64,000 nt of DNA from Pseudomonadota bacterium (GCA_039198225.1 JBCCTQ010000005.1:59829-123828); one strand, 5' to 3'. Positions 1,465 through 12,779 are shown, numbered from the stretch's first letter. Translations and numbers: made by a program. Notes: generated from the sequence alone by a model not told the origin.

Positions 1465-2307
1465 ATGGACAGCGACGACCCGACAAAGGAGGATACGGTC
1501 GCGGCCGTCACTGATCCGAGCGAAGTTGGGCGAGAGTTTCACAATGCTGGCGACCGTCTGACGATTACGGTCTCGAACCTCTTCGCCTGGTTCTTTCCGT
1601 TCTTGATGATGATCATTTGCGTGCAAGTGGTCCTTCGTACGCTAGGCCGCGCCGGTATTGGTCCTGGAAACCAAGCTTGGATGGACGATCTCCAATGGTG
1701 GCTCTATGGCGCCGCTGTCCTGATCGGAATTGGCTATGCTGTGACCACGAACAGCCATGTGCGCGTCGACATATTTTACGACAGTTTCCCGGAACGGAAA
1801 AAACGCCGGTTCGACATTTTTGCCCTCACTTGGCTCTTCTTGCCGTTCATCATCCTCTGTTGGGACGTCACCATACACTACGCTATCGCTTCCGTCGTTG
1901 CAGATGAAGGGTCGAGCAGTCCGAACGGCCTACACAACCTTTGGATTTTAAAGGTCTTTATGAATGTGAGCTTCATCGTTTTGGGCGTTGCGGCCTGGTC
2001 GGCTTATGTTCGGCTGCTTGCAGAGTTGACCGAACCTAAGCTGTGGCGAAAATTACTCTATGCGTTTCCGAGTACGATGTTTTTGGTCAACCTCGTCGTA
2101 TTTTATGCGATTTGGTGGGTGATATTCCTCACAAGCCCCGAAGGAACTCAAACGCGCGCCGTGGGTCGAAATGCGATATTCGATGAGTTCGAATTCGGGA
2201 ATTGGGAGATCAAGTACACGATCGCTATCACTCTCGTGGCGACGCTGCTCCTAATCGCGCTCGCTCGTGTATTAGACCGCAGCGCCGCGTCGCGTGGCAA
2301 TAAATAG
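1465..2307 (+). CDS. TRAP transporter small permease (DctQ-like, extended)
   Basis: 280-aa multi-TM ORF with a GGGAGGGA RBS, positioned between the SBP and DctM genes. Confidence 0.85.
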   Translation: MDSDDPTKEDTVAAVTDPSEVGREFHNAGDRLTITVSNLFAWFFPFLMMIICVQVVLRTLGRAGIGPGNQAWMDDLQWWLYGAAVLIGIGYAVTTNSHVRVDIFYDSFPERKKRRFDIFALTWLFLPFIILCWDVTIHYAIASVVADEGSSSPNGLHNLWILKVFMNVSFIVLGVAAWSAYVRLLAELTEPKLWRKLLYAFPSTMFLVNLVVFYAIWWVIFLTSPEGTQTRAVGRNAIFDEFEFGNWEIKYTIAITLVATLLLIALARVLDRSAASRGNK

Positions 2308-2319
2308 GGAACGGAACCG

Positions 2320-3762
2320 ATGTTGAGCTCTATCGGTCAGTTCCTGACCCTAAATGAACTCGCTGTATTAGCGATGTTTCTTGGTTTTATTTGGATGCTG
2401 TTCCGCGGCATTCCTGTCGCAATGGCCCTTGTGGGCATCAGCCTCGTATTTGTCCTGATCGCCGAGTTCTTCCTCGATCCGTTCAGAGGTGAATTGCGCG
2501 ACATTATCGAGTTTGACCGGACAGGAATCAACTACCAACGCCTCCAAGCTCTGTCAGCCAGACTATTTGGCAATATTGTGCAAAACCCGGTTTTGGTGGC
2601 TCTTCCGATGTTCATCTTTATGGGGCTCATGCTTGATCAGTCAGGTGTGGCCCAGCGGATGATGCACGCAATGCAGAAGCTATTTGGTGGCTTGCGTGGT
2701 GGCCTTTCGCTGACTGTTCTTTTGATTGGCATTATTCTCGCCGCCTCCACTGGGGTCATCGGCGCATCTGTGACACTGCTCGGCGTCATGGCGTTGCCTG
2801 CGATGATGAAGCAGGATTACTCAAAGCCGATTGCCACCGGCACGATTGCCTCTGCAGGAACGCTGGGGATTCTCATTCCTCCATCGATCATGCTTGTTAT
2901 CATGTCGGACCAATTGGCCATCAGTCTCGGCGATCTATTCATGGGAGCGCTGTTTCCGGGGTTGATCCTCGGTGGGCTTTATATCGTCTTTATCGTCATT
3001 TACGGCATTCTCTTTCCCGACGCGATGCCAGCGCCAGAACGTGCCGAGAACATTCGGTGGGCAGACGTAAGGGAAGTACTTTTGGCGGTGGTTCCGCCGA
3101 TGTTGTTGATTTTGTTGGTATTAGGTTCGATTTTCGCCGGCTATGCGACCCCAACCGAAGCGTCCGGCCTCGGAGCAATGGGGGCAACACTTTTAGCGTT
3201 GGGCAATCGGAAGCTCAATTGGCGCGTCCTACGTGATGTCAGCCGGTCTACACTGAACACATCAGGCTATATCGTTGGTATTTTCCTCGCTGCGAACTTC
3301 TTCGCCTTGGTTTTACGTCGGTATGGCGGAGACGAAATTGTTCAAAATCTCGTACTATCAGCCTTTGATGATCCATACATGACCGTGGCGTTCATTCTCT
3401 TCATTGTTTTTCTTCTCGGCTTTCTACTCGATTGGATCGAAATCACGATCATCATCATGCCACTGATGCTGCCCATCATCTTGGCCCTTGAATTGAGCAT
3501 TCCGGGTTTCGATCAGGTGCGTGATCCGTCCGTTGTTTGGTTTGCAATTCTGGTGGCGGTCACGCTCCAAACCTCGTTTCTTACGCCACCGGTTGGATTT
3601 GCGCTTTTCTATCTAAAAGGAGTGTGCCCCCCCGGGGTATCTTTGAAGCACATATATCAGGGCGTCGTCCCTTTTGTCTTTCTCCAACTCCTGGGCCTAT
3701 TCATCGTCTTCGAATTCCCGTCGTTGACAACGTGGCTTCCTTCCGTGGCTTACGGAGGCTAA
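2320..3762 (+). CDS. TRAP transporter large permease (DctM family)
   Basis: 480-aa polytopic membrane protein with typical DctM sequence. It starts 13 nt after the DctQ-like gene. Confidence 0.93.
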   Translation: MLSSIGQFLTLNELAVLAMFLGFIWMLFRGIPVAMALVGISLVFVLIAEFFLDPFRGELRDIIEFDRTGINYQRLQALSARLFGNIVQNPVLVALPMFIFMGLMLDQSGVAQRMMHAMQKLFGGLRGGLSLTVLLIGIILAASTGVIGASVTLLGVMALPAMMKQDYSKPIATGTIASAGTLGILIPPSIMLVIMSDQLAISLGDLFMGALFPGLILGGLYIVFIVIYGILFPDAMPAPERAENIRWADVREVLLAVVPPMLLILLVLGSIFAGYATPTEASGLGAMGATLLALGNRKLNWRVLRDVSRSTLNTSGYIVGIFLAANFFALVLRRYGGDEIVQNLVLSAFDDPYMTVAFILFIVFLLGFLLDWIEITIIIMPLMLPIILALELSIPGFDQVRDPSVVWFAILVAVTLQTSFLTPPVGFALFYLKGVCPPGVSLKHIYQGVVPFVFLQLLGLFIVFEFPSLTTWLPSVAYGG

Positions 3763-4149
3763 CGAGGGGTTGCTTTGGGACGAATTACTGATCGTAGTTA
3801 GGCAATGCCTGCTCGACCCTTGTTAGCAAGGCCTGCCTTTGACAATTCACTTCAGTGTCGACGCCGGGACCACATAGCCATAACAGGAACTGGCAGTGAA
3901 AGACGGTTTACAGCACCAGTAAGAAGCTAGAACTTGGCTTTCCAAACGATCAGGCGTCGTTCACAACTCCGATTTCGCTGCGCAAGCCGTCGCAATGGAT
4001 GAACTCGCTCAGGCCGCAGTCTGGGTATGGCAGCCTTCATCGAGCGGGATCCTCTCGCTCAGAATGAACACCGTGCCGACTGCCTCGAGGCTGAACTTCC
4101 CTAAAATTCTAGAGGGGCGTAAGCTCCTTGCGAGCCTGCTCGCGGGAGG

Positions 4150-4362
4150 TTAAGCTGTCGCGGGGTCAACCGTAAGCCCAACAGCCTCGGCGTACTTTAG
4201 CCACGTTTCAATTGAAGCTACGACGGCGCGAACTTCAATTGCGAGAAGCTCAATACCGACCAGCGATACGCGCACGAATGCATCAATCACGACACCCTTG
4301 TCGAGGATACGGTCAACGACCTCAGCGATAGAAGCAGATGCAACGCTTTTCTCAATAGCCAT
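4150..4362 (-). CDS. gvpA: Gas vesicle major structural protein GvpA
   Basis: Taking the internal ATG at 4362 (GGGAA RBS about 10 nt upstream) gives the 70-aa product [70 protein letters not shown]. It matches the canonical GvpA core ([38 protein letters not shown]) almost residue for residue. The track ORF starts 13 codons earlier at a GTG, which I consider unlikely. Confidence 0.93.
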
Positions 4363-4492
4363 TTCGTTATTCCCTATTTCCGAATTGTCCAAAACATCCA
4401 CCCGTCGGGTGCTCTCACTTTTACTAGCTGGATTTTCCTAAAGCTATGTTAAACAGACAAAAACGTTTCACGGCCTTCGCGAAAATGTGGCT

Positions 4493-5941
4493 TCAGCGAT
4501 CTGTCTCCGTGACTTCTGCATTATATGCAAAGAGTGCTAAAGTCTCCGCAATAGTCGCAAGAAAGTCGCGCAAAGGCTCGAGATCGGGTGTTTTGGTTGT
4601 CAAGGAGATCTGACAAGAGAGCGCCTCATTGGCCAATGCGAGGCTCTTTATCGCTGAAATCAATTCGGATAGGTTTCCGCTTGCGAATTCATTCGGTCCG
4701 GCGGCAACCTGCTCGTTGAACGTGCCTCTTGCGTGCTCATCTTCTTCGTATTGTGGATCATCTCTCCGAATCGTCGCTTCTTCGATCCGCCGGAGAACCA
4801 CACCGGCTGCCGTGTTAAACTGTGCGAAACTGCGGCGTTGTACCGTTAAATCCAGCACTGGATCCGGCCGTGCAGCAATCTCCGACACCATTGAACTGAG
4901 GTTTTCAAGCCTTTCGTAGAGCTCCGGTGATCCGCCATTCGAATATGGTTCGGACTGAGCCTTGATCGATTCTGTCTGCTTGGTTTGAAGGTCCAAAATT
5001 CGATCAACCGTTTCCTTTAATTCAGTGGTATTGGTCGGTGGCTCCAATTGGGACGCCTCATATCGATCGGCGATTCTATCCAGACGCTTGACTACATGTC
5101 CGATTGCTGTGCCGAAGCGTGAAAAAAACTGGCGTTGTTCGGTAAGATCTAGAACGGGGTCAGGTCGATCCATGAGGGCGGAAATAGAGGCGCTGAAATC
5201 CTCCAACACGGGTCGCAGAGCTGCTTCAACGGCCTGTTTGCAAATTGTATCAAGGTGCGTTGATCCGGGTTCTCCGTTAATTGCGGTTGGTCCTTTTTCC
5301 ACTTCCGTACTATCCAATCGGCACAACAATTCATTCACACGCGCTAAATCCAGACTTGGATCGGGCGCAGTATGTTCTGCGAGAACTGAGAGAAGTGTGT
5401 CCGAGAGGGCTTGCGTCGCCAGCATGTGACTGGCTTCGTTCGAAGCCTCAAGCCGGCGAACGATTTCTTCGATCCAATGCGGCGGTGTATCTGGACTGAT
5501 TTCGCTCTGTTCTTCCACTGCGTTAAATTCAACCAAGCGTGCCTCTAGCGCGTCCAGCCGCAAAGTAAGCGCTGCTTGTTGACCATCTGATAAAGATTGG
5601 TCCTGCTGACTGTGGCTTTGCTCAATCGCATCCAATCGTTGCATTGCCGCATTCAACTCGTCTCTTAGCTTGTCCATGGCAAGGTGCTGCGCTGACATGC
5701 TCTCGTTGATCTTAGTATGGTCTCCCGACATTTGTGAGGACGGGTATTCCTCAGAAGGAAATAGGTCAGTGCCCAAACAGTTTGGCGGATCGGAAGCGTT
5801 GGATGCGGCGCGCGCGGATTTGGTGTCTATGTCAGGACGTAAAATCTCGCCGCTCGTATTGCCGGCACTCTGCTCTTGGTCGATCAGTCTATGGCTCACG
5901 AAAAGTGCTGCTTTCTTAGGAGAGGCTTCGTTGGCAGTCAT
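4493..5941 (-). CDS. Hypothetical coiled-coil/repeat protein (about 482 aa); no family recognised
   Basis: Long ORF with protein-like composition and Q/E/L/R-rich helical segments. It contains internally repeated RPDPVLDLT.QR..F..F.TA.G.V..R motifs. The start is uncertain: ATG 5941 is preferred over ATG 5977. Confidence 0.6.
   Translation of the reverse strand: MTANEASPKKAALFVSHRLIDQEQSAGNTSGEILRPDIDTKSARAASNASDPPNCLGTDLFPSEEYPSSQMSGDHTKINESMSAQHLAMDKLRDELNAAMQRLDAIEQSHSQQDQSLSDGQQAALTLRLDALEARLVEFNAVEEQSEISPDTPPHWIEEIVRRLEASNEASHMLATQALSDTLLSVLAEHTAPDPSLDLARVNELLCRLDSTEVEKGPTAINGEPGSTHLDTICKQAVEAALRPVLEDFSASISALMDRPDPVLDLTEQRQFFSRFGTAIGHVVKRLDRIADRYEASQLEPPTNTTELKETVDRILDLQTKQTESIKAQSEPYSNGGSPELYERLENLSSMVSEIAARPDPVLDLTVQRRSFAQFNTAAGVVLRRIEEATIRRDDPQYEEDEHARGTFNEQVAAGPNEFASGNLSELISAIKSLALANEALSCQISLTTKTPDLEPLRDFLATIAETLALFAYNAEVTETDR
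4781..5167 (-). repeat. Intragenic protein-level repeat: two 30-aa motif copies 99 aa apart, plus a degenerate third copy at 5312-5368
   Basis: Copy 1 is RPDPVLDLTEQRQFFSRFGTAIGHVVKRLD (5078-5167). Copy 2 is RPDPVLDLTVQRRSFAQFNTAAGVVLRRIE (4781-4870). The degenerate copy is APDPSLDLARVNELLCRLD (5312-5368). Confidence 0.7.
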
Positions 5942-6049
5942 TCTCTTTACCCAAATAAATAGGCACGTTCGCGCCAAGAATGAGAAGTCGAGGCTTTGGC
6001 GTTGTTTATCCCTGCGGAATGGTGTCCGCCAAAAATTTAACGGACAACG

Positions 6050-7261
6050 CTACCAATCCTGAAGTTTACCAAGTGAAGTCGTGGGAGCAGACTTACCAAA
6101 GGTGAAGGCTTCGGGTCGGGCGGTTGCCGGTAGCTTAAGTGCAGTTCGACGTAGCCGATCCTCGAGATCGTTTGTGTAATCAGTCTTAGATACGATGAAC
6201 ACTTTGAGCCGCATTCCATCCCGCCGCGCAATCACGTCTTCGACTTCCTTGTCCACTCTTAGTGCATCCTCGACAATACCCAAGTCCACATTGGAGCCGG
6301 CGATTTGGATCACTCGGTCACGGCGACCAACAACCGAAAAAGAACGGCTATTAACCCAATCAAGTTTGTCTTCTGCATTGCAGGTTTTGCGTCCGTGCTG
6401 GCGACACAGTTTCAAATCTGTTTGGGTTATATTGCTAAAGAGGTTGAAAGTTGACTTGCTTGAATTCCGCCATCCTACCCCCCCGGTTTCCGTAGAACCG
6501 TATATATCGAAGAGTTCTGCAACGCCGGTTGCATTCGCAGCGTGCCAAGTGCTTGAGCAAGCGGGACCCCCCGACGAAACTCCAATTGTACGGTCCGGGA
6601 ATCGCAACCCAAACTCCGAGTACTTTCGCCATAGGTAGGGCGTTGCGAGTACTATGTCGCCATTACTACACATCCGAGAGATCGAGTTCGGCGCAACAAA
6701 GTGTTGATCCAGCACATCGATGCCAAGCCGCTTTGGTAAAAGGACGCTCCATACGAAGCCATACATATGATGAGGAGCCACGGCTGTAAGGACCCGGTTG
6801 GACCCCTTAATCGACGGTAGAGCATCGCAAATAGCGTCGATTTCTGCATCGAGATCCCTGCGTTCGTGGCTGATTTTCTTCTTCTCGCCAACTGTTCCGG
6901 AGGTCGAGAATGAAATTTTGGCCCCGCCAACTATACGTTCGAAGTGCATCGAAACGAGTCTGGCCCATTCATTGAGACTGCGATTGATAAAGAGATGATC
7001 CTCAATCCCAGTTGCCGAAAGTCCGAAATAATCGTTAAAGCAAAGGACGAGATCCATTAATCGAAGACTATCGATGTCCAGTTCGTTCTCTGAAATTTCT
7101 ACGTCACCCTCGGAGCCGTCCTCGTTGGAACCAAGGACCGACATAATATGGCCACTGCGACGCATTCGGTTCTTGCGAAGTAATTCGCTTTGAAAGTCGG
7201 CTATTAGAGAGATGCAGAGACGTCGGGCGTCCCTTGCGTCGATGAGTGGCGCGTTAGACAT
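6050..7261 (-). CDS. pcl: Adenylate-forming enzyme, probable p-coumarate-CoA ligase for PYP chromophore activation
   Basis: 403 aa with AMP-binding superfamily motifs: STSGTVGEKKKI (P-loop-like A3), DIYGSTETGGVG (A5), GRRDRVIQIAGSNV (A8), and a C-terminal LGKLQDW lysine motif. It is short, like the PYP-associated pCLs, and lies in the same tightly spaced operon as pyp. Confidence 0.8.
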   Translation of the reverse strand: MSNAPLIDARDARRLCISLIADFQSELLRKNRMRRSGHIMSVLGSNEDGSEGDVEISENELDIDSLRLMDLVLCFNDYFGLSATGIEDHLFINRSLNEWARLVSMHFERIVGGAKISFSTSGTVGEKKKISHERRDLDAEIDAICDALPSIKGSNRVLTAVAPHHMYGFVWSVLLPKRLGIDVLDQHFVAPNSISRMCSNGDIVLATPYLWRKYSEFGLRFPDRTIGVSSGGPACSSTWHAANATGVAELFDIYGSTETGGVGWRNSSKSTFNLFSNITQTDLKLCRQHGRKTCNAEDKLDWVNSRSFSVVGRRDRVIQIAGSNVDLGIVEDALRVDKEVEDVIARRDGMRLKVFIVSKTDYTNDLEDRLRRTALKLPATARPEAFTFGKSAPTTSLGKLQDW

Positions 7262-7273
7262 GGGGAGAGGGTC

Positions 7274-7756
7274 CTAGTTGAGATCCACTTCGCCAGATGC
7301 CATTTCCGCAAATAGCTCTCCGACAAGTCCGCTATAATGCGCGCGAGCCGTTTGTACTTCCGCCTTCAATGAGAGAGCCATGGACGCGATCTCTGCTGGA
7401 GATCCTTGTTCGATTTCCATTCCCGGTACCGTAAGGTCTTCCGAAGCATCATAGTTTTGGATGTAATTGAACGCTTCGTCGATGGTCTCGAAGCAATGGG
7501 ACTTGACGGTGTCGGTAAACTCTTCCGATACGTAGAACTTACGGATTGCAACCGCAAATCCGGTGTCAGTTTTGCGATACAAGTTGATTTCGTACCAATA
7601 GGATAGACCAGGCGTAAAGCTCATGGCCATGGCCAGTTCCGTGCCTTCAAATACGTTTGGGCGAGATCCGGGTTGTGGGAGGCGAAAGAAGGTCGCTGAC
7701 CCGACAAGAGGCAGCTCTGCACCCATTTGTTCTGCGGCATTCATTTGGTTTTGCAT
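7274..7756 (-). CDS. Hypothetical protein (160 aa), member of a local three-gene paralogue set
   Basis: ATG 7756 has an AAGGA RBS. It sits 15 nt after the upstream gene and 12 nt before pcl. It shares motifs with 7772-8335 and 9628-10119 (see findings). Confidence 0.6.
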   Translation of the reverse strand: MQNQMNAAEQMGAELPLVGSATFFRLPQPGSRPNVFEGTELAMAMSFTPGLSYWYEINLYRKTDTGFAVAIRKFYVSEEFTDTVKSHCFETIDEAFNYIQNYDASEDLTVPGMEIEQGSPAEIASMALSLKAEVQTARAHYSGLVGELFAEMASGEVDLN

Positions 7757-7771
7757 GTCTTGATCCTTGGC

Positions 7772-8335
7772 TCAGCCTACAAGTGTGTTGGATTGCATAT
7801 CGGACGATATCGAACCGTCACGTTCTGGGTTAGTTTGGTCGGAACCTTCCGCGTGGTAAGTGGAGCGACCGGGGCTTGCCTGAGACTGCGTTTGGACGTC
7901 TTTGGATTGGATAAAGGATTGAAACTCTAACTCGTTCGTAACCATTGACGCGCGATATTCTGGTCGTGCCACCGTGTTGCCTTTTGGCGCGTGAGCGAGC
8001 CCGATGAAAATGCGCCCATCTTCTGCGCAATAGACTTCAACACGCCGGCCAAGTTTGTTTGATCCTTGAAAACGATGAACGAAATCACTCTCATCGACCC
8101 AAACAAGTAATCCCCTAAATACAAGCGGATGTTGACCGTCTTGGCGTAGGACAACCTTTGGCCAACCTGAACTATCACCGGCTTCGAATAGGGCCAAACG
8201 GCTTTGTGTATTGTCCTTCGGGTCAATTGCCGCCGGCGTTGTGGATTCAGAGACTTGCACCCGCTGATCGTTCAGCAGGTGAAGGAGCTCAGGATGCACT
8301 GTGGCTTCAAAATGTACGTCAGGGCAGGAATACAC
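7772..8335 (-). CDS. Hypothetical protein (up to 187 aa), member of the local paralogue set; start uncertain
   Basis: The ORF begins 15 nt after the pyp stop. The first start is a GTG (8335) without a clear SD, and there is no internal ATG for about 130 codons. Shared motifs: PLVFRG, VEVYCAEDGRIFIGL, ELEFQSFIQSKD. Confidence 0.5.
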   Translation of the reverse strand: MYSCPDVHFEATVHPELLHLLNDQRVQVSESTTPAAIDPKDNTQSRLALFEAGDSSGWPKVVLRQDGQHPLVFRGLLVWVDESDFVHRFQGSNKLGRRVEVYCAEDGRIFIGLAHAPKGNTVARPEYRASMVTNELEFQSFIQSKDVQTQSQASPGRSTYHAEGSDQTNPERDGSISSDMQSNTLVG

Positions 8336-8350
8336 GGGCGATCTGCCAGT

Positions 8351-8725
8351 CTAGGCCCTTTTGACGAATAGCCAACAATGTTGGCCGTCAGGCTGCGATT
8401 TCAGATGGATTTTGACGCCGGCATTTGTTCCTTTGTAAGTGAACTTGTAGTCGAACATCACGTTGATTTGCCCGGTCGTGTGAAACTTTAGGAATTCGCC
8501 GTGAAAGCGCTTTCCCTTCGCGCATGGGGCGATCTCGTTGAAGAAATTCTTGCCCATCACGTCTTCGGGTGAGCGGCTCGAGATCATGCTTTCGGCTTTG
8601 TTGTATTTCACAATCGTGCCATTTCGGTCGAGCAGGATCGCTCCAAATGGGAGATACTCAGCGCGTTGCGGTTCGCGCGCGAGAATGTTGTCGACATCGT
8701 TGCTGCCGAAAGGAATAGTTTCCAT
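8351..8725 (-). CDS. pyp: Photoactive yellow protein (PYP), PAS-fold blue-light receptor
   Basis: 124 aa, collinear with Halorhodospira halophila PYP with a one-residue offset. Conserved stretches include FGS.D..N.LA, FGAI.LD..G.I..YN.AE, GKNFF..(V/I)APC and (W)(V/L)FVKR. Pocket residues Tyr41, Glu45, Ser49 (Thr50 in H. halophila), Arg51 and the chromophore Cys68 (codon 8522-8524) are present. There is an AAGGA RBS. Confidence 0.95.
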   Translation of the reverse strand: METIPFGSNDVDNILAREPQRAEYLPFGAILLDRNGTIVKYNKAESMISSRSPEDVMGKNFFNEIAPCAKGKRFHGEFLKFHTTGQINVMFDYKFTYKGTNAGVKIHLKSQPDGQHCWLFVKRA

Positions 8726-8769
8726 CGTGTTTTCCTTCTGTGCGCTTTAGATTGAGTGCGTGATGCGCT

Positions 8770-9204
8770 TTACTTGGTGTCGTTTGCCATATCGACACCA
8801 TCCTCGTTTTTGAGGAAGCTGTCGTTTTTGGTGAGGGACATGTCGACAATTCGGCGGATCGGAAAGCCATCATAATCTGACGTCAATTTATCTCGACCGT
8901 CAGCGGCGGTCCACTTATAGTCCATGCGACCCATTTGAACGACGCATTGGGGAATGATCTCGAAGCGCTCTTTCGCGGCAGATTCTTCTGCGAAGATATC
9001 CATCTCCGTTGCTTCTTCGAATTCCTGGAGGGTCTTCAACTCGTCAATTTTACTATCGCTCTCATTCTTGGCGGTCGTCGCCAGAATTTCATATGCGGCG
9101 AGGAGGACCCACTCTGGATGATCGCCCCGCACCACAAGGCTCATTTCGGGACATCGGAATTCGTACCGCCCGTCGGCTTCAGACAATTGGCCTAGATTTT
9201 GCAT
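8770..9204 (-). CDS. Hypothetical protein (144 aa), first gene of the pyp operon
   Basis: The internal ATG 9204 with an AAAGGAA RBS is preferred over GTG 9234. The gene ends 44 nt upstream of pyp. No family recognised. Confidence 0.55.
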   Translation of the reverse strand: MQNLGQLSEADGRYEFRCPEMSLVVRGDHPEWVLLAAYEILATTAKNESDSKIDELKTLQEFEEATEMDIFAEESAAKERFEIIPQCVVQMGRMDYKWTAADGRDKLTSDYDGFPIRRIVDMSLTKNDSFLKNEDGVDMANDTK

Positions 9205-9368
9205 CCGGATGACGTTCCTTTCGGCTGGAGACACTTTAAAACCGCATCGGTTCCGGCTTGCTGGGGAATAGGTTCGAAAACGTCAAAATTCAGTTTACGG
9301 TGTCGTGATCCCTTGCTTTGTCCTGCCGGGTTGATACTGTTCAGTGGTGTGGGATTAGGGGTAACGAG

Positions 9369-9521
9369 ATGTCGTCTTGGGTAGAACTGCGTGTCGAGAA
9401 CGAGTTTGAGGGCGTTCTGATTTATGCTTTTGAGCGGCCAACAGACGCGGCCGAGATGATTGAATTCCTATCAAGCTTTTGGCCGAAGGCGCGTTTTATT
9501 GTCGAACCTCTCCGACATTGA
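9369..9521 (+). CDS. Possible small protein (50 aa) in the divergent control region
   Basis: ATG 9369 is preceded by AGGGG. The product is MSSWVELRVENEFEGVLIYAFERPTDAAEMIEFLSSFWPKARFIVEPLRH. It is short and has no recognised homology. Confidence 0.25.
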   Translation: MSSWVELRVENEFEGVLIYAFERPTDAAEMIEFLSSFWPKARFIVEPLRH

Positions 9522-9627
9522 CTGGCGTAATCAACGCCGCTGCAGAAATGCGACTGAGGATGTAGCGGTCGTTTGGCGTGGCTCTCCGTTAACTTTGGCG
9601 TAAGCATTAAACTGATAAACGCGAGGG

Positions 9628-10119
9628 ATGATGCATCCCAGCGTTACCACGGCCCAGGAGGCTTTGAGCGCTTCTGGCGATGCTACACCGTCTGCGGCTT
9701 GGTCGCTCACGCTCTTACCTCGCAGTGGTGCACCTCCGCTGCGATTTTTCGGCAGAGAAGTCTTCAAAGAAACAACAGGCGGTTTGAGCGAGCCGCTCAT
9801 TGTGGGCCTTTGGGCGAAGCGCAAGGCGGGGTACGTGCTGCAGCATTCCGCGATTGAAGCGGAGCCGCGGTCACATGTGACGGTCAGCGTTGACGATCTG
9901 TCGACGGCGATGTTTGCGCTCGAAGACTATTGCTCGACCCTTGCTGCGGGGCGGGATGCCGCCTTTGAGTTCGAGGGGCCGGACCTCGATGTGGCCCTGA
10001 ACAGATCGCTGGACGCCCAAGTCAGACGCAGCCGAACCAACGCTTTTCTTACCCTTGCCGGTCATGCCCTTGCCATGTGGGACACATGGCTTGCGGATGA
10101 GGCCGATGACCGAAACTAG
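9628..10119 (+). CDS. Hypothetical protein (163 aa), member of the local paralogue set
   Basis: Transcribed divergently from the pyp operon. Shared motifs: PLRFFG, GLSEPLIVGLWAKRKAGYVL, AMFALEDYC. Its stop overlaps the RBS of the next gene. Confidence 0.55.
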   Translation: MMHPSVTTAQEALSASGDATPSAAWSLTLLPRSGAPPLRFFGREVFKETTGGLSEPLIVGLWAKRKAGYVLQHSAIEAEPRSHVTVSVDDLSTAMFALEDYCSTLAAGRDAAFEFEGPDLDVALNRSLDAQVRRSRTNAFLTLAGHALAMWDTWLADEADDRN

Positions 10120-10129
10120 GAGATCCTGA

Positions 10130-10843
10130 ATGTCGAGCTCTTCGTTGCAGTCCAGCAGTGCCATCCGAATGGAAGCGCGCCAACATTTGCGCAAGCTTCG
10201 CCAAGCGCGGCTTCAGTCAAAGATTGCTCGAACCCCAGGGCCTCCAACTGAGGAAAATACACAGTCGGTGCCTTTGGTTGGCGGTGAGGTGCCGATTGAG
10301 GAACACGACGCACATGCGGCCAACGAAGCCATTGAGCCCCGTGTGGAAGAAACGTTCGCGTCGCAACGTGCCGGAAGCGTATTCATACAATTACAGGCTG
10401 ACGAGGTGCCGGAAAGCGAGGGAAAGTCTACGGATCAGTCCGTAGAAGATATGCCTTCGGAAAAGCCCAGCGCCGGTGCCTCGGAAGAGCTTGAAAGTGA
10501 TCCTTCGGCCGTTTTTTTGGACGAACCCGGTGACACAGACGTAGCTGATGCCGAGCGTACCGACAGTGGCGAGGAAACTGAAAAGAATTCGGTAGAGCAC
10601 TCAGAGGCGCCATCGAAGGAAGTGGCAATTAGTATTCGAGAGCCCGGAGAATCCGAGCTCTTTGCGCTGCCAGGATCGGGCCCAGGATTGGTATGGATGC
10701 TGGAAAAGAGCGGCATCTCAGACCTGAAAGCCCTTGCTGAGGCTGACGTCGAAAAGCTTCGAACGGATCTGGGGCTAATCGCCAAGATCCTCGACGTCGA
10801 TTATTGGATCGAGTTTGCGAGGAAGTCTCAAGAAGAGGCCTAG
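10130..10843 (+). CDS. Acidic low-complexity protein with a C-terminal helix-hairpin-helix-like domain (237 aa)
   Basis: A TAGGAG RBS overlaps the upstream stop. About 170 aa are E/D/S/P-rich, followed by LFALPGSGPGLVWMLEKSGISDLKALAEADVEKLRTDLGLIAKILDVDYWIEFA, which has an HhH-type LPG.GP pattern. Confidence 0.6.
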   Translation: MSSSSLQSSSAIRMEARQHLRKLRQARLQSKIARTPGPPTEENTQSVPLVGGEVPIEEHDAHAANEAIEPRVEETFASQRAGSVFIQLQADEVPESEGKSTDQSVEDMPSEKPSAGASEELESDPSAVFLDEPGDTDVADAERTDSGEETEKNSVEHSEAPSKEVAISIREPGESELFALPGSGPGLVWMLEKSGISDLKALAEADVEKLRTDLGLIAKILDVDYWIEFARKSQEEA

Positions 10844-10981
10844 TCCACCCTGCGCCGAACTACATGGGAAAAGGCCCAGGAGGGCGCTTTGATGGATCTG
10901 AACCGTCTATGCACCAGCCCCTTTCCCTGAGATGCGCGCCGGATGAAGGCAAGGATGCCGGGTTCGTTTAAGACCCGTTGT

Positions 10982-11656
10982 CTAAAGCGCGGCTTGAGCT
11001 TCGGCCGCGGTGCCAAAGCGGGGAAGGTTGGCGGCGGATTTTCCGTGGGCTGCCATCAACGCATCGCGGACAAATGCGATGTGAGCTGTCTCTTCGATGA
11101 TCTCCGCAAGGTATTGCGCAGCCATAATGGTCTTGCCCACGCCAATCGTGCCGTGATTGGCAAGGACCGCTGCGCGAACATCTAGCGCGCGAAAAACGGG
11201 GCTGATCTCGCGTTCCGTTTGCGGCCCGCCATTGCCAGACAGGGGGATCAGGGGCATCCGTCCGATTTTCTCGACGGTTTGAACCGTGAGGCATGGGATC
11301 TCCAGGCCGGCGCTCGCGTATCCCGTTGCCCACGGGCTGTGGCAATGGACAATCGCATTGATATCTTCACGGATTCGGTAGAGGTCGAGGTGGAAGTCGA
11401 GGTCTTTTGATGGCTTGAGGCCTTCGGCGCCCCGGAGGATTGAGCCAGACAGATCGACGACCTGAAGATTGTCGCGGCTACATTCAGCGAAACCCACGCC
11501 CGACGGTTTGATCACAATTGCGTCGCGAGCATCGAGCCTAACTGAGAGGTTGCCACCCGCATTGGTCTGGAGCCCCAGATCGAAACAGCGTCGGGCCGCG
11601 GCAATGAGGTCGTCCATCTTGTCGTAAATGTCGGGAAAGCGGGATGTATCAGGCAT
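10982..11656 (-). CDS. Class II aldolase/adducin-family protein
   Basis: 224 aa with GGNLSVR, IKPSG and a metal-binding HCHSP region typical of FucA/AraD-like class II aldolases. It overlaps the upstream gene by 8 nt. Confidence 0.88.
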   Translation of the reverse strand: MPDTSRFPDIYDKMDDLIAAARRCFDLGLQTNAGGNLSVRLDARDAIVIKPSGVGFAECSRDNLQVVDLSGSILRGAEGLKPSKDLDFHLDLYRIREDINAIVHCHSPWATGYASAGLEIPCLTVQTVEKIGRMPLIPLSGNGGPQTEREISPVFRALDVRAAVLANHGTIGVGKTIMAAQYLAEIIEETAHIAFVRDALMAAHGKSAANLPRFGTAAEAQAAL

Positions 11657-12779
11657 TTGGCATCCTTTCGAACAGGGCGATGACGGCGGCCTCGGCCGTC
11701 GCTTTTTCGTTAATGTGGTGGTCGAGCCGTTGGACCGTAAAGGAGCGCGCCTCCGCTTCGAGGATGTCCGCGGTTATGTCGCGCAAAACCGGAGCCTCGA
11801 TTGCTCCGCCCGGTCGATCCTCGCTGCTAAACCCACCCATTGGAATCAATACGTGGCAGGGGGCGATGGAATGGTTGAGTTCGGCAGCGAGCGCATGGGC
11901 TTGGCTTTCCATTTCGGCTTCAGTCAAAACCACATGGGTGAAGTGTCTCGCATGGGCATAGTGAGGACGGGCGCGATAGGCGTCCGACACCGTGTGCCGA
12001 GCTCCGAATCCAATGAAATTAAGACCCCCGGGGAGCACGACCCGAGGGAGCGCGTCGGCCACCCGAAAACGATCAGGCATCGGTACGTGGTCGCCAGCCA
12101 GTCGAAGGCGGCCAAGTTCGTGGACATTGAGGTCGATGACAGCCGCGGCGTGGCCTTCGGCAACAAATCGCGAGAATGCCGCACCGCCAAAGCCATTGGC
12201 ATGAAAGACAGTTGCGTCGAGCCCCTTATCCGCGAGCGCTTCCGCCACGGCCGCGCCCGCCGCATTGGTTGTGCCCAATGTGGTGACAGCGACGTTCGCC
12301 CGGTCGCCATGGGCAACCGTCGAGGCCTGGGCCAATCCGCCCACCATGGCCGCAGTGTTCTCAAAAACCTGGCTGAGCATCGGGTTCAAACCTTGGAGAT
12401 CGCAGAGCGTGGGCACCAATGTAATCGCGGTGTCGGCAAGTGCTGCGCGTGGGTCGAAGGCCAATGTCGTGACAAGAAACTTGGGAAACGTCGCCGGGAG
12501 CGCCTTCAATGTGTCAAGCGCGATCTCTCCCCCGGTTCCACCGCCGAGCCCGATTGCGGCTAGGGCTTGGTCGCCATGCTGGGCCACTTCCTGCGCGCCG
12601 GCCGAGACGACCTCGGCCATTCGGGCCATTTTGGCCTCACTTGTGAGGACGACGCCTCTCGCATCGAGTGACGTGTCGACCACGACCGGCTCGAGCCCGT
12701 GGCGCTCAAGCGCAGCGACCAATTCTTGTATTTCTGCCGATTTGGTCTCCACCGTCCCGATCACGAGGACGCGTTTCAT
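11649..12779 (-). CDS. UPF0261 (Tm-1-like ATP-binding domain) family protein
   Basis: 376 aa. The N-terminus MKRVLVIGTVETKSAEIQEL and the overall pattern resemble UPF0261 proteins. Confidence 0.75.
   Translation of the reverse strand: MKRVLVIGTVETKSAEIQELVAALERHGLEPVVVDTSLDARGVVLTSEAKMARMAEVVSAGAQEVAQHGDQALAAIGLGGGTGGEIALDTLKALPATFPKFLVTTLAFDPRAALADTAITLVPTLCDLQGLNPMLSQVFENTAAMVGGLAQASTVAHGDRANVAVTTLGTTNAAGAAVAEALADKGLDATVFHANGFGGAAFSRFVAEGHAAAVIDLNVHELGRLRLAGDHVPMPDRFRVADALPRVVLPGGLNFIGFGARHTVSDAYRARPHYAHARHFTHVVLTEAEMESQAHALAAELNHSIAPCHVLIPMGGFSSEDRPGGAIEAPVLRDITADILEAEARSFTVQRLDHHINEKATAEAAVIALFERMPNA

What the first reader, a model, noticed from the sequence alone, without database searches (positions are those of the whole stretch)
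7274..10119. Three divergent paralogues (160, 187 and 163 aa) bracket pyp
Reading the three translations side by side shows the same three motif blocks in the same order.
- Block 1: P.VF.G-type. PNVFEG in the 160-aa protein, PLVFRG in the 187-aa protein, PLRFFG in the 163-aa protein.
- Block 2: a strand-like block. GLSYWYEINLYRKTDTGFAVAI (160 aa), GRRVEVYCAEDGRIFIGL (187 aa), GLSEPLIVGLWAKRKAGYVLQH (163 aa).
- Block 3: a helix-like block. DEAFNYIQNYD (160 aa), ELEFQSFIQSKD (187 aa), STAMFALEDYC (163 aa).

Two copies sit directly downstream of pyp and one heads the divergent operon. Local triplication of an unknown small-protein family around a photoreceptor gene is unusual. It suggests a dedicated, possibly multimeric, partner set. 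The similarity was judged by eye and is weak.
Basis: seen in the sequence. Interest (0 to 1): 0.65.

Follow-up and report, generated by a model that had tools for sequence, protein, structure and literature searches.

The report
Three hidden paralogues flanking pyp
The three small proteins around the photoactive yellow protein gene really are distant relatives of one another, and they belong to an undescribed protein family that sits beside this light sensor and gas-vesicle genes in many Alphaproteobacteria, which makes them good candidates for its long-sought signalling partners.

Summary
The 160-aa (Z, 7274-7756 -), 187-aa (Y, 7772-8335 -) and 163-aa (W, 9628-10119 +) proteins are only 12-17% identical, and BLASTP hardly sees the similarity. 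Profiles built separately from their positional orthologues in 49 loci match each other and nothing else. hhalign gives Z-W 97.9%, Y-W 97.0% and Y-Z 91.8%, against under 3% for controls.

This is an old, conserved arrangement, not a recent local triplication. The usual module is V<-W<-S50 | X->pyp->Y->Z->pcl, normally running on into a full gas-vesicle (gvp) cluster. X is probably the published PYP-binding protein, PBP.

The family has no Pfam, NCBIfam or PDB relative. It has about 325 clusters at 50% identity. Sampled distant members again lie beside pyp, pcl and gvp genes, with two exceptions among seven.

AlphaFold models give five strands, a helix and a long C-terminal helix. The only fold resemblance is a weak one to PUR repeats. 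Y-Z fusion proteins occur naturally.

The function is untested. My best guess (about 0.4) is that they are paired adaptor subunits relaying the PYP/PBP light state to gas-vesicle formation.

The parts
7274..7756 (-). Z, 160 aa. Paralogue 1 and the best conserved of the three, acidic (pI 4.3). It lies 12 nt upstream of pcl.
   Evidence: A family of 34 clusters of about 160 aa (alignment A1). It is present in 49 of 49 related loci. AlphaFold2 gives pLDDT 86.5 and pTM 0.76, with five strands, a short helix and a long helix at 120-154. Family motif residues are G30, P33, F36 and G38.
7772..8335 (-). Y, 187 aa. Paralogue 2 and the most divergent. It has an N-terminal extension of about 50 aa and an insertion after the motif. 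It lies 15 nt downstream of pyp and 15 nt upstream of Z.
   Evidence: Positional orthologues in 44 loci. hhalign to W 97.0% and to Z 91.8%. Motif residues are G67, P70, F73 and G75. It is fused to Z in P0040 and P0047. The public gene call is 175 aa.
9628..10119 (+). W, 163 aa. Paralogue 3, in the divergent operon S50-W-V.
   Evidence: Orthologues in 41 loci. Its profile hits every Z. hhalign to Z is 97.9%. An AlphaFold2 model built on a superfamily alignment gives pLDDT 87.1 and the same order of strands and helices as Z. The public gene call keeps only the C-terminal 94 aa and so loses blocks 1 and 2.
8351..8725 (-). pyp, photoactive yellow protein, 124 aa, of the Rhodobacter capsulatus type.
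   Evidence: NCBIfam TIGR02373 at 180 bits against a cut-off of 143. Pfam PAS. It aligns end to end with Halorhodospira PYP, keeping Cys69, Tyr42 and Glu46, with Gly where that protein has Met100.
8770..9234 (-). X, 154 aa, acidic. Probably the orthologue of the published PYP-binding protein PBP. It is not related to Y, Z or W.
   Evidence: Conserved in 44 loci directly upstream of pyp. Family members are 141-146 aa, usually with 2 Trp and 3 Tyr, and pI 4.4-4.8. The published PBP has 142 aa, an extinction coefficient of 15,500 (which I calculate fits 2 Trp + 3 Tyr) and an acidic pI. hhalign to Y, Z and W is below 1%.
9369..9521 (+). S50, a conserved 50-aa ORF at the head of the divergent operon, upstream of W.
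   Evidence: jackhmmer finds it in 26 loci, always just upstream of X on the opposite strand. It is called as a 49-52 aa gene in L002 and L003.
10130..10843 (+). V, 237 aa. It has an N-terminal basic helix, a long acidic linker and a C-terminal domain resembling helix-hairpin-helix. It is co-transcribed with W.
   Evidence: Conserved in 38 loci. Weak Pfam HHH_5 and NCBIfam L21 C-terminal matches. Consensus. V-like proteins sit next to gvpA in L049, L051, L052, L058 and L064.
6050..7261 (-). pcl, 4-coumarate-CoA ligase, 403 aa. It activates the PYP chromophore.
   Evidence: NCBIfam TIGR02372 at E 1.1e-92 and 310.7 bits, just under the 334.7 cut-off. Pfam AMP-binding. It follows Z in 47 loci.
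4493..5977 (-). 494-aa coiled-coil protein with an internal repeat, next to gvpA. It is a homologue of the '332-aa' gvpA neighbour in other loci.
   Evidence: phmmer to the L001 332-aa protein gives E 5e-14. Only weak coiled-coil Pfam matches. The repeat RPDPVLDLT-QR--F--F-TA-G-V is visible twice in the translation.
4150..4401 (-). gvpA, the major gas-vesicle structural protein, last gene of the minus-strand operon.
   Evidence: Pfam PF00741 at E 2.4e-16. phmmer to L001 GvpA gives 7.9e-38.

Best explanation
Y, Z and W are three ancient paralogues of an undescribed protein family of about 130-160 aa.

Shown:
- The predicted fold is a five-stranded antiparallel sheet, a short helix and a long C-terminal helix.
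- The family signature is R-x-G-x-x-P-x-x-F-x-G.
- The family is a fixed accessory of the Rhodobacter-capsulatus-type PYP photoreceptor module (PBP-like X, pyp, pcl).
- That module is physically joined to gas-vesicle gene clusters in Alphaproteobacteria.

Inferred:
- The proteins have no enzymatic role and act as adaptor subunits that work in pairs. Y would pair with Z. W would pair with itself or with its operon partners S50 and V.
- They would bind the basic PYP, or the PYP-PBP complex, according to its light state, and pass that state on to gas-vesicle production or assembly. That would set buoyancy in response to UV-A and blue light.
- The pairing would use the sheet and the long helix, much as two PUR repeats pair to make one domain.

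My confidence differs by layer. For the paralogy and the link to pyp-pcl-gvp it is about 0.95. For the adaptor mechanism it is about 0.4, and that is the figure entered as confidence.
For: Paralogy:
- Separately built profiles cross-hit only one another.
- hhalign gives 92-98% against under 3% for controls.
- The Z and W models have the same order of strands and helices.

Link to the photoreceptor:
- The order V<-W | X->pyp->Y->Z->pcl appears in 32 of 49 loci as such. Most of the rest are truncated contigs.
- In the window the genes are 12-15 nt apart.
- Distant members at 25-35% identity again sit in X-pyp-M-M-pcl (L054, L058, L065) or pyp-128-M-M-<pcl-M (L052, L064).
- Where no X is present, a family member takes X's place directly upstream of pyp (L049, L063).

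Link to gas vesicles:
- A full gvp cluster follows pcl, or follows W-V, in about 35 of 49 loci.

Pairing:
- Y-Z fusion proteins P0040 and P0047 occur. P0047 is seen in three contigs from different samples.
- Proteins of 392-409 aa carry two copies of the domain.
- PUR repeats, the only recurring fold resemblance, work as pairs (plus established knowledge of PUR domains).

Charge:
- Z has net charge -10 and X -13, while PYP has +4 and pI 9.1.
- The PBP study proposed the same kind of electrostatic complementarity between Rc-PYP (pI 9.4) and PBP (pI 3.9).

No catalytic or DNA-binding family matches any of the three.
Against:
- One distant member (L051) sits beside gvpA and a V-like gene with no pyp within 5-8 kb.
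- One tandem-domain member (L053) has neither pyp nor gvp nearby. The domain can therefore work without PYP.
- The window has only gvpA and its 494-aa neighbour. No other gvp gene and no TAL gene lies in the 64 kb.
- Z's very strongly conserved segment ELAMAMSFTP--PYWYEINLYR would also suit a ligand or substrate site.
- The W model used an alignment containing Z relatives, so the shared fold is not an independent result.
Confidence: 0.4

Rival explanations
1. They are accessory or assembly factors of gas vesicles themselves, or regulators of gvp genes that act independently of PYP. On this view they merely share a supercluster with the photoreceptor genes.
For: - In L051 a member lies divergent from gvpA and a V-like gene, with no pyp nearby.
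- W, or W-V, sits directly upstream of gvpN in L025, L038, L039 and L047.
- In L001 the order W-V-332-gvpA suggests one operon ending in gvpA.
- The two loci without gvp genes (L027, L028) have also lost Y, W and V, and keep only Z.
Against: - Z persists in L027 and L028 with X, pyp and pcl but with no gvp gene within 10 kb.
- The window keeps all three although most of the gvp cluster is absent from its 64 kb.
- The tightest and most constant neighbours are pyp and pcl, not any gvp gene.
- No match to any Gvp Pfam family.
Confidence: 0.2
2. They are nucleic-acid-binding regulators resembling PUR or Whirly proteins. They would bind single-stranded DNA or RNA of gvp genes as dimers and would form the output arm of the pathway.
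For: - Both models bring up PUR repeats as the matches with the highest Foldseek probability.
- For Z this is Borrelia Pur-alpha 3nm7: probability 0.89, 62 columns, rmsd 3.3 Å.
- For W these are human PURA 8chu (E 0.048, probability 0.92) and Drosophila Pur-alpha with DNA, 5fgp (E 0.072, probability 0.91).
- PUR repeats pair into domains, which fits the Y-Z fusions and the tandem-domain proteins.
- V carries a motif resembling helix-hairpin-helix.
Against: - No Foldseek match reaches E<0.01, and TM-scores are only 0.3-0.5.
- No Pfam match to PurA, WGR or related models, even at E<=1.
- Z is strongly acidic (net -10), and 78% of 110 distant members have pI below 6. That is unusual for nucleic-acid binders.
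Confidence: 0.15
3. They help make holo-PYP. For example they might hand p-coumaroyl-CoA from pCL to Cys69 of apo-PYP, chaperone apo-PYP, or modulate pCL.
For: - Z-pcl is the most persistent gene pair. It is kept in L027 and L028, where Y, W and V are gone, and it is seen in L054-L058 and L065.
- In L052 and L064 family members flank pcl on both sides.
- Z has an almost invariant 25-residue segment, as a binding pocket would.
Against: - From my own knowledge of the literature (Kyndt et al. 2003, listed's references), TAL, pCL and apo-PYP alone give holo-PYP in E. coli.
- The superfamily-wide conserved residues are Arg, Gly, Pro and Phe at a turn, not an obvious catalytic set.
- L051 and L053 have members without pcl.
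- Three paralogues are more than such a role would seem to need.
Confidence: 0.12
4. The similarity is chance or compositional, and the three are unrelated small proteins.
For: Pairwise BLASTP is not significant for two of the three pairs. Identity in the aligned core is only 12-17%.
Against: - Profile-profile probabilities are 92-98%, against under 3% for controls.
- Cross-family HMM hits are confined to the three families among 5,747 ORFs.
- A shared invariant motif and the same order of strands and helices.
Confidence: 0.02

Closest known systems
PYP-binding protein PBP (RCAP_rcc01067) of Rhodobacter capsulatus (Kim et al. 2021, bioRxiv 10.1101/2021.06.01.446672)
   Same: It is a small acidic protein encoded next to an Rc-type pyp. 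It is the only experimentally shown partner of a single-domain PYP, and it binds in defined oligomers (PBP dimers; a PYP2-PBP4 complex after UV light). Y, Z and W share the operon and, in Z's case, the acidity. In loci without X a family member takes X's position.
   Different: There is no detectable homology. hhalign between the X family and Y, Z or W gives 0.1-0.2%. PBP corresponds to X (8770-9234), not to any of the three. Binding of Y, Z or W to PYP has never been tested.
PUR repeat / PUR domain (Pur-alpha; Whirly-class fold)
   Same: A four- or five-stranded antiparallel sheet followed by a helix. Repeats work in pairs, either within one chain or between chains, which parallels the Y-Z fusions and tandem-domain proteins. 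It gives the highest-probability Foldseek matches for both models.
   Different: The match is not significant (E 0.05-0.5, TM 0.3-0.5). There is no sequence-profile match. The family adds a 35-43-residue C-terminal helix and is mostly acidic, whereas PUR proteins bind nucleic acids.
The pyp-gas-vesicle gene cluster of Rhodobacter capsulatus and Loktanella (Kyndt et al. 2004; Vollmers et al. 2013, PMC3646047)
   Same: The same supercluster: pyp, pcl and TAL next to gvpN, O, A/J, F/L, G and K.
   Different: I found no description of these three paralogues, V or S50 in the text available to me. This window has only gvpA and its neighbour, not the full cluster.
Known gas-vesicle regulators (GvpD/GvpE of haloarchaea, GvrA/B/C of Serratia)
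   Same: A possible role in controlling gas-vesicle formation from within or beside the gvp cluster.
   Different: No sequence relation was detected. The comparison rests on my knowledge of those systems and on the lack of any Pfam or NCBIfam match. Those regulators have recognisable ATPase, leucine-zipper or response-regulator features, and Y, Z and W have none.

Membership tests
Y/Z/W superfamily (defined here) | The N-terminal motif R-x-G-x-x-P-x-x-F-x-G at the turn between strands 1 and 2. | tested here: met
   Z has G30, P33, F36, G38. Y has G67, P70, F73, G75. W has R32, G34, P37, F40, G42. The motif is 86-98% conserved over 133 sequences.
Y/Z/W superfamily (defined here) | Significant profile-profile similarity over the whole core domain. 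| tested here: met
   hhalign gives 97.9%, 97.0% and 91.8%, against under 3% for controls. HMM cross-hits are confined to the three families.
Y/Z/W superfamily (defined here) | A common fold: five strands, a helix, then a long C-terminal helix. | tested here: inconclusive
   The Z and W models agree in the order of elements, with pLDDT 86-87. The W alignment contained Z relatives, Y was not modelled, and no superposition tool was available.
Y/Z/W superfamily (defined here) | Genomic association with pyp and pcl. | tested here: met
   44 of 49 Rhodobacterales loci have pyp, and the rest are truncated. 5 of 7 distant representatives and all 9 metagenome loci lie with pyp or pcl.
PUR repeat (Pfam PurA and related models) | A sequence-profile match to the family model. 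| tested here: not met
   No Pfam hit at E<=1 for Y, Z, W or ten distant members.
PUR repeat (Pfam PurA and related models) | The beta-beta-beta-beta-alpha repeat fold. | tested here: inconclusive
   The best Foldseek matches by probability (0.89-0.92) are PUR repeats, but with E 0.05-0.2 and TM 0.3-0.5.
PUR repeat (Pfam PurA and related models) | Binding of single-stranded nucleic acid. | not testable with these tools
   The acidic charge of Z and of 78% of distant members argues against it.
PYP-binding protein PBP | Homology of Y, Z or W to the PBP-like gene X. | tested here: not met
   hhalign X against Y, Z and W gives 0.1-0.2%. No HMM cross-hits.
PYP-binding protein PBP | Light-dependent binding to PYP. 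| not testable with these tools
   It needs purified proteins. The assay is described.
PYP-binding protein PBP (applied to X) | Sequence identity of X with RCAP_rcc01067. | tested here: inconclusive
   Length, Trp/Tyr content, acidity and adjacency to pyp all fit. The PBP sequence is held only as an image, and the R. capsulatus locus was not retrieved.
Gas-vesicle protein families (GvpA/J/M, GvpF/L, GvpG, GvpK, GvpO, GvpN) | A match to any Gvp model. | tested here: not met
   No Pfam or NCBIfam hit for Y, Z or W. Searches with Gvp proteins taken from related loci find only gvpA and the 494-aa protein in the window.
Photoactive yellow protein (for the central gene) | A TIGR02373 match above the cut-off, with the chromophore Cys, Tyr42 and Glu46. 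| tested here: met
   180 bits against a cut-off of 143. The alignment to Halorhodospira PYP keeps Cys69, Tyr42 and Glu46.

The most novel reading that the evidence does not exclude
Y, Z and W are the missing output arm of single-domain PYP signalling. On this reading they form a new class of photoreceptor transducer with its own fold. They would assemble as hetero- and homodimers with PYP-PBP according to its UV-A or blue-light state, and so switch gas-vesicle formation and buoyancy in marine and peat Alphaproteobacteria.
Probability: 0.3. Interest if true: 0.8.

Novelty: new variant of a known kind. Interest (0 to 1): 0.62.

Why it matters
PYP has been a model photoreceptor for decades, yet what it signals to is still largely unknown. 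The only reported partner is PBP, found in 2021 by testing the gene next to pyp in Rhodobacter capsulatus.

This analysis shows that the same operon carries a second, more constant companion. It is an undescribed family present in two or three copies per locus, including in lineages that have no PBP-like gene.

That gives three concrete candidates that can be cloned and run through the published PYP-PBP light-binding assays. It also gives targets for knockouts that score gas-vesicle formation under UV-A and blue light.

The work also defines a protein family with no Pfam or NCBIfam model and no solved structure. It corrects a truncated public gene call for W.

Tried and rejected
- The word-indexed homologue search found only the query itself for W and for Y. 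That was a sensitivity limit, not absence, because positional orthologues turned up once loci were fetched through Z.
- Two attempts to scan metagenome contigs with diverse alignments failed for lack of a conserved stretch. A four-sequence alignment then worked but returned only nine loci, mostly short.
- Sequence searches of the PDB found nothing meaningful with X, with the Z alignment or with a 40-member distant alignment.
- Foldseek gave no match at E<0.01 for either model.
- Pfam and NCBIfam gave nothing for X, Y, Z or W or for ten distant members.
- tblastn of Z against plasmids found no match.
- The promoter and terminator scan of 3700-11200 gave counts close to chance and was not used.
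- The PBP sequence could not be read, because the supplement holds it as an image. Kyndt et al. 2004 is not held. The equation X = PBP therefore rests on length, composition, charge and position.
- I considered whether X, V or the 123-131-aa protein that follows pyp in other lineages also belong to the family. hhalign rejects all of them, at under 3%.
- I considered whether the fusion proteins were assembly artefacts. P0047 recurs in three contigs from different samples, so I treat the fusion as real.


Full report
**What is in the window.**
Between 4150 and 10843 there are two divergent operons.
- On the minus strand: X (154 aa, 9234-8770), pyp (8725-8351), Y (187 aa, 8335-7772), Z (160 aa, 7756-7274), pcl (7261-6050), a 494-aa coiled-coil protein (5977-4493) and gvpA (4401-4150).
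- The gaps between pyp, Y, Z and pcl are only 12-15 nt.
- On the plus strand: a 50-aa ORF (9369-9521), W (163 aa, 9628-10119) and V (237 aa, 10130-10843).
- pyp is a genuine photoactive yellow protein. It scores 180 bits on TIGR02373 against a cut-off of 143. It keeps the chromophore cysteine, Tyr42 and Glu46, and has glycine where Halorhodospira PYP has Met100. The PBP preprint reports the same substitution for the Rhodobacter capsulatus protein.
- pcl is a 4-coumarate-CoA ligase and gvpA is a gas-vesicle protein.
- X, Y, Z and W have no Pfam or NCBIfam match at E<=1.

**Checking the observation.**
BLASTP barely sees the similarity. Z-W gives E=0.048 and the other two pairs give nothing. The word-indexed protein search found 34 relatives of Z but only the query itself for Y and W.

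I therefore fetched loci through Z. This gave 4 metagenome loci and 43 loci from one genome per species, all of them Rhodobacterales or unclassified Pseudomonadota MAGs. Named genera include Roseivivax, Rhodovulum, Yoonia, Sulfitobacter, Pseudorhodobacter, Roseicyclus and Kangsaoukella.

In these loci single-sequence phmmer already finds orthologues of W in 41 loci and of Y in 23. One W hit is the gene that occupies the Y position in L021.

I assigned ORFs to families by position and built three separate alignments and HMMs.
- The W profile hits all 48 Z ORFs at E<1e-3 (median 2.5e-10).
- The Y profile hits 14 Z and 7 W ORFs at E<1e-3.
- None of the three profiles hits any of the other roughly 5,600 ORFs, even at E<=10.
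- The X, V and PYP profiles stay within their own families, apart from a few weak hits to unassigned ORFs.

hhalign gives Z-W 97.9% (E 6.6e-13, 127 columns), Y-W 97.0% (121 columns) and Y-Z 91.8% (89 columns). All twelve control pairs score below 3%.

Block 1 is the superfamily motif R-x-G-x-x-P-x-x-F-x-G. Identity among the three window proteins is 12-17% in match columns.

**Structure.**
- AlphaFold2 on the Z alignment gives a confident model (pLDDT 86.5, pTM 0.76). It has a disordered N-terminus, five strands (22-26, 34-46, 53-62, 67-75, 83-89), a helix at 92-101 with a short helical turn at 104-107, and a long helix at 120-154.
- W was modelled on a 57-sequence superfamily alignment that includes Z relatives, so it is not an independent test. 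It gives pLDDT 87.1 and the same order: strands 26-32, 35-49, 58-64, 69-74 and 83-88, then helices 91-110 and 120-162.
- Foldseek against the PDB finds nothing at E<0.01 for either model.
- The matches with the highest probability are PUR repeats in both cases. For Z it is Borrelia Pur-alpha (probability 0.89). For W they are human PURA (E 0.048, probability 0.92) and Drosophila Pur-alpha bound to DNA (E 0.072).
- I treat this as a lead only.

**Conserved context.**
- The order V<-W | X->pyp->Y->Z->pcl is found as such in 32 of 49 loci. Most others are truncated contigs or small rearrangements.
- pcl normally runs straight into a complete gas-vesicle cluster: gvpN, a 74-aa gene, gvpO, gvpA/J, a 187-aa gene, gvpF/L, gvpG, a CDC48-like ATPase, more gvpF/L, gvpS and gvpK, sometimes followed by a repeat protein, gvpA and TAL.
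- In L038 the same cluster instead follows W-V. In L025, L039 and L047, W sits between pcl and gvpN.
- The link between pyp and gas-vesicle genes was already noted for R. capsulatus and Loktanella.
- The window is atypical. Only gvpA and its 494-aa neighbour are present, and no other gvp gene or TAL lies in the 64 kb.
- Two loci from one Rhodovulum lineage (L027, L028) have X-pyp-Z-pcl with no Y, W, V or gvp genes within 10 kb.

**X is probably PBP.**
The one known partner of a single-domain PYP is PBP, the product of the gene next to pyp in R. capsulatus. It has 142 residues, an extinction coefficient of 15,500 at 280 nm (which I calculate fits 2 Trp + 3 Tyr) and pI 3.9. It is a dimer that forms a PYP2-PBP4 complex after UV light and is released by blue light.

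X-family proteins are 141-146 aa, mostly with 2 Trp and 3 Tyr, and have pI 4.4-4.8. I could not see the PBP sequence itself, so the match is probable, not proven. X is unrelated to Y, Z and W.

**How wide the family is.**
A profile built from W, Y, Z and three Z relatives was run against 1.84 billion representative proteins. It finds 325 clusters at E<=1e-3 and 125 at E<=1e-10.

Most of the listed 150 are 140-190 aa. They score well below true Z orthologues on the Z profile while also scoring on the W and Y profiles. They are therefore further branches of the same superfamily. None has a Pfam match.

I looked up the genomic setting of seven such distant members.
- Five lie with pyp and gas-vesicle genes; four of these loci also have pcl, and L063 has TAL with no pcl detected (L049, L052, L063, L064, L065).
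- L052 and L064 again have three members, arranged as pyp, a 123-128-aa gene, M1, M2, pcl on the opposite strand, then M3.
- One member (L051) lies divergent from gvpA and a V-like gene, with no pyp in view.
- One, a 409-aa protein with two copies of the domain, lies among unrelated hypothetical genes.

Nine metagenome loci found by motif all carry pyp or pcl next to the family members. The association with pyp holds well beyond Rhodobacterales, though it is not absolute.

**Clues to mechanism.**
1. Y and Z are fused into single proteins in two lineages. P0047 recurs in three contigs from different samples, in the context X-pyp-[YZ]-pcl-gvpN. Together with the tandem-domain proteins, this suggests the domains work in pairs.
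2. Where X is missing, a family member occupies X's position 32-44 nt upstream of pyp (L049, L063).
3. Z (net charge -10), X (-13) and V (-25) are acidic, while PYP is basic (+4, pI 9.1). Y and W are near neutral. 78% of 110 distant members have pI below 6.
4. That charge pattern fits protein-protein contact with PYP, as was proposed for PBP. It argues against nucleic-acid binding as the general function of the family.
5. None of the module's genes has a recognisable enzymatic or sequence-specific DNA-binding domain, apart from a motif resembling helix-hairpin-helix in V.

**Conclusion and confidence.**
I am about 95% confident that the three proteins are paralogues of an undescribed family that is a standing component of the pyp-pcl-gas-vesicle supercluster.

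What they do is inferred. I favour paired adaptor subunits that relay the PYP/PBP light state to gas-vesicle formation, at about 0.4. The rivals are gas-vesicle assembly or regulation independent of PYP (0.2), PUR-like nucleic-acid binding (0.15) and help with holo-PYP formation (0.12).

I found no description of the family in the searchable literature.

Noticed in passing
window 9369-9521 (+): A conserved 50-aa ORF (MSSWVELRVENEFEGVLIYAFERPTDAAEMIEFLSSFWPKARFIVEPLRH) lies between X and W. It is found in 26 related loci, always just upstream of X on the opposite strand. It keeps this position even where W and V have moved elsewhere (L003, L012, L047). Function unknown.
   Followed up: partly
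window 1-64000, especially 4150-5977: The window carries only gvpA and a 494-aa neighbour. The rest of the gas-vesicle cluster (gvpN, O, F/L, G, K, J) and TAL, which follow pcl in most related loci, are absent from the 64 kb. Either they lie elsewhere in the genome or this organism has a cut-down module.
   Followed up: partly
window 9628-10119 (+) and 7772-8335 (-): The public gene call for W is only 94 aa, the C-terminal 58%. It drops the conserved N-terminal motif and strands. Y is called as 175 aa. Orthologue alignments support the longer W ORF.
   Followed up: yes
window 10130-10843 (+): V has a conserved basic N-terminal helix, a long acidic low-complexity linker and a conserved C-terminal domain resembling helix-hairpin-helix (LPGAGPGLVWML...ILDV..WI.FA). 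V-like proteins sit directly next to gvpA in distant loci L049, L051, L052, L058 and L064. V may therefore be a gas-vesicle-linked protein.
   Followed up: partly
window 4493-5977 (-): The 494-aa protein next to gvpA carries an internal repeat, visible twice as RPDPVLDLT.QR..F..F.TA.G.V..R about 100 residues apart. It is homologous to the 332-aa gvpA neighbour in L001 and to proteins in six other loci. It might play a GvpC-like role, but this was not tested.
   Followed up: no
L066 629-1681; L067 4890-5792; L068 302-1204: Natural Y-Z fusion proteins of 350 and 300 aa occur in two lineages. They sit in the usual place between pyp and pcl.
   Followed up: yes
L053 6280-7509 (P0147); also P0178: Proteins of 392-409 aa carry two tandem copies of the domain. 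P0147's locus L053 has no pyp or gvp genes; its neighbours include pentapeptide-repeat and Fic proteins. P0178's neighbourhood was not looked up. The domain is therefore not strictly tied to PYP.
   Followed up: partly
L052 5151-5522; L064 5194-5580; L049 7715-8110: In lineages without a PBP-like X, pyp is followed by an acidic protein of 123-131 aa that looks like a coiled coil. These proteins are homologous to one another and unrelated to X, Y, Z or W. L049 also has two pyp genes separated by two ParA-like ATPase genes. L063 has a single pyp with a ParA-like ATPase gene beside it.
   Followed up: partly
L027 and L028, about 8500-12000: Rhodovulum sp. 12E13 and a related MAG carry a minimal module, X-pyp-Z-pcl, with no Y, W, V or gvp genes within 10 kb. 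This suggests Z is tied to the photoreceptor and Y, W and V to the gas-vesicle side.
   Followed up: partly
window 2001-9000: GC content is 0.505-0.517 across 2-9 kb, against 0.55-0.62 from 9 kb onward. The low-GC stretch also covers the neighbouring TRAP transporter gene, so it is not a clean island boundary.
   Followed up: no
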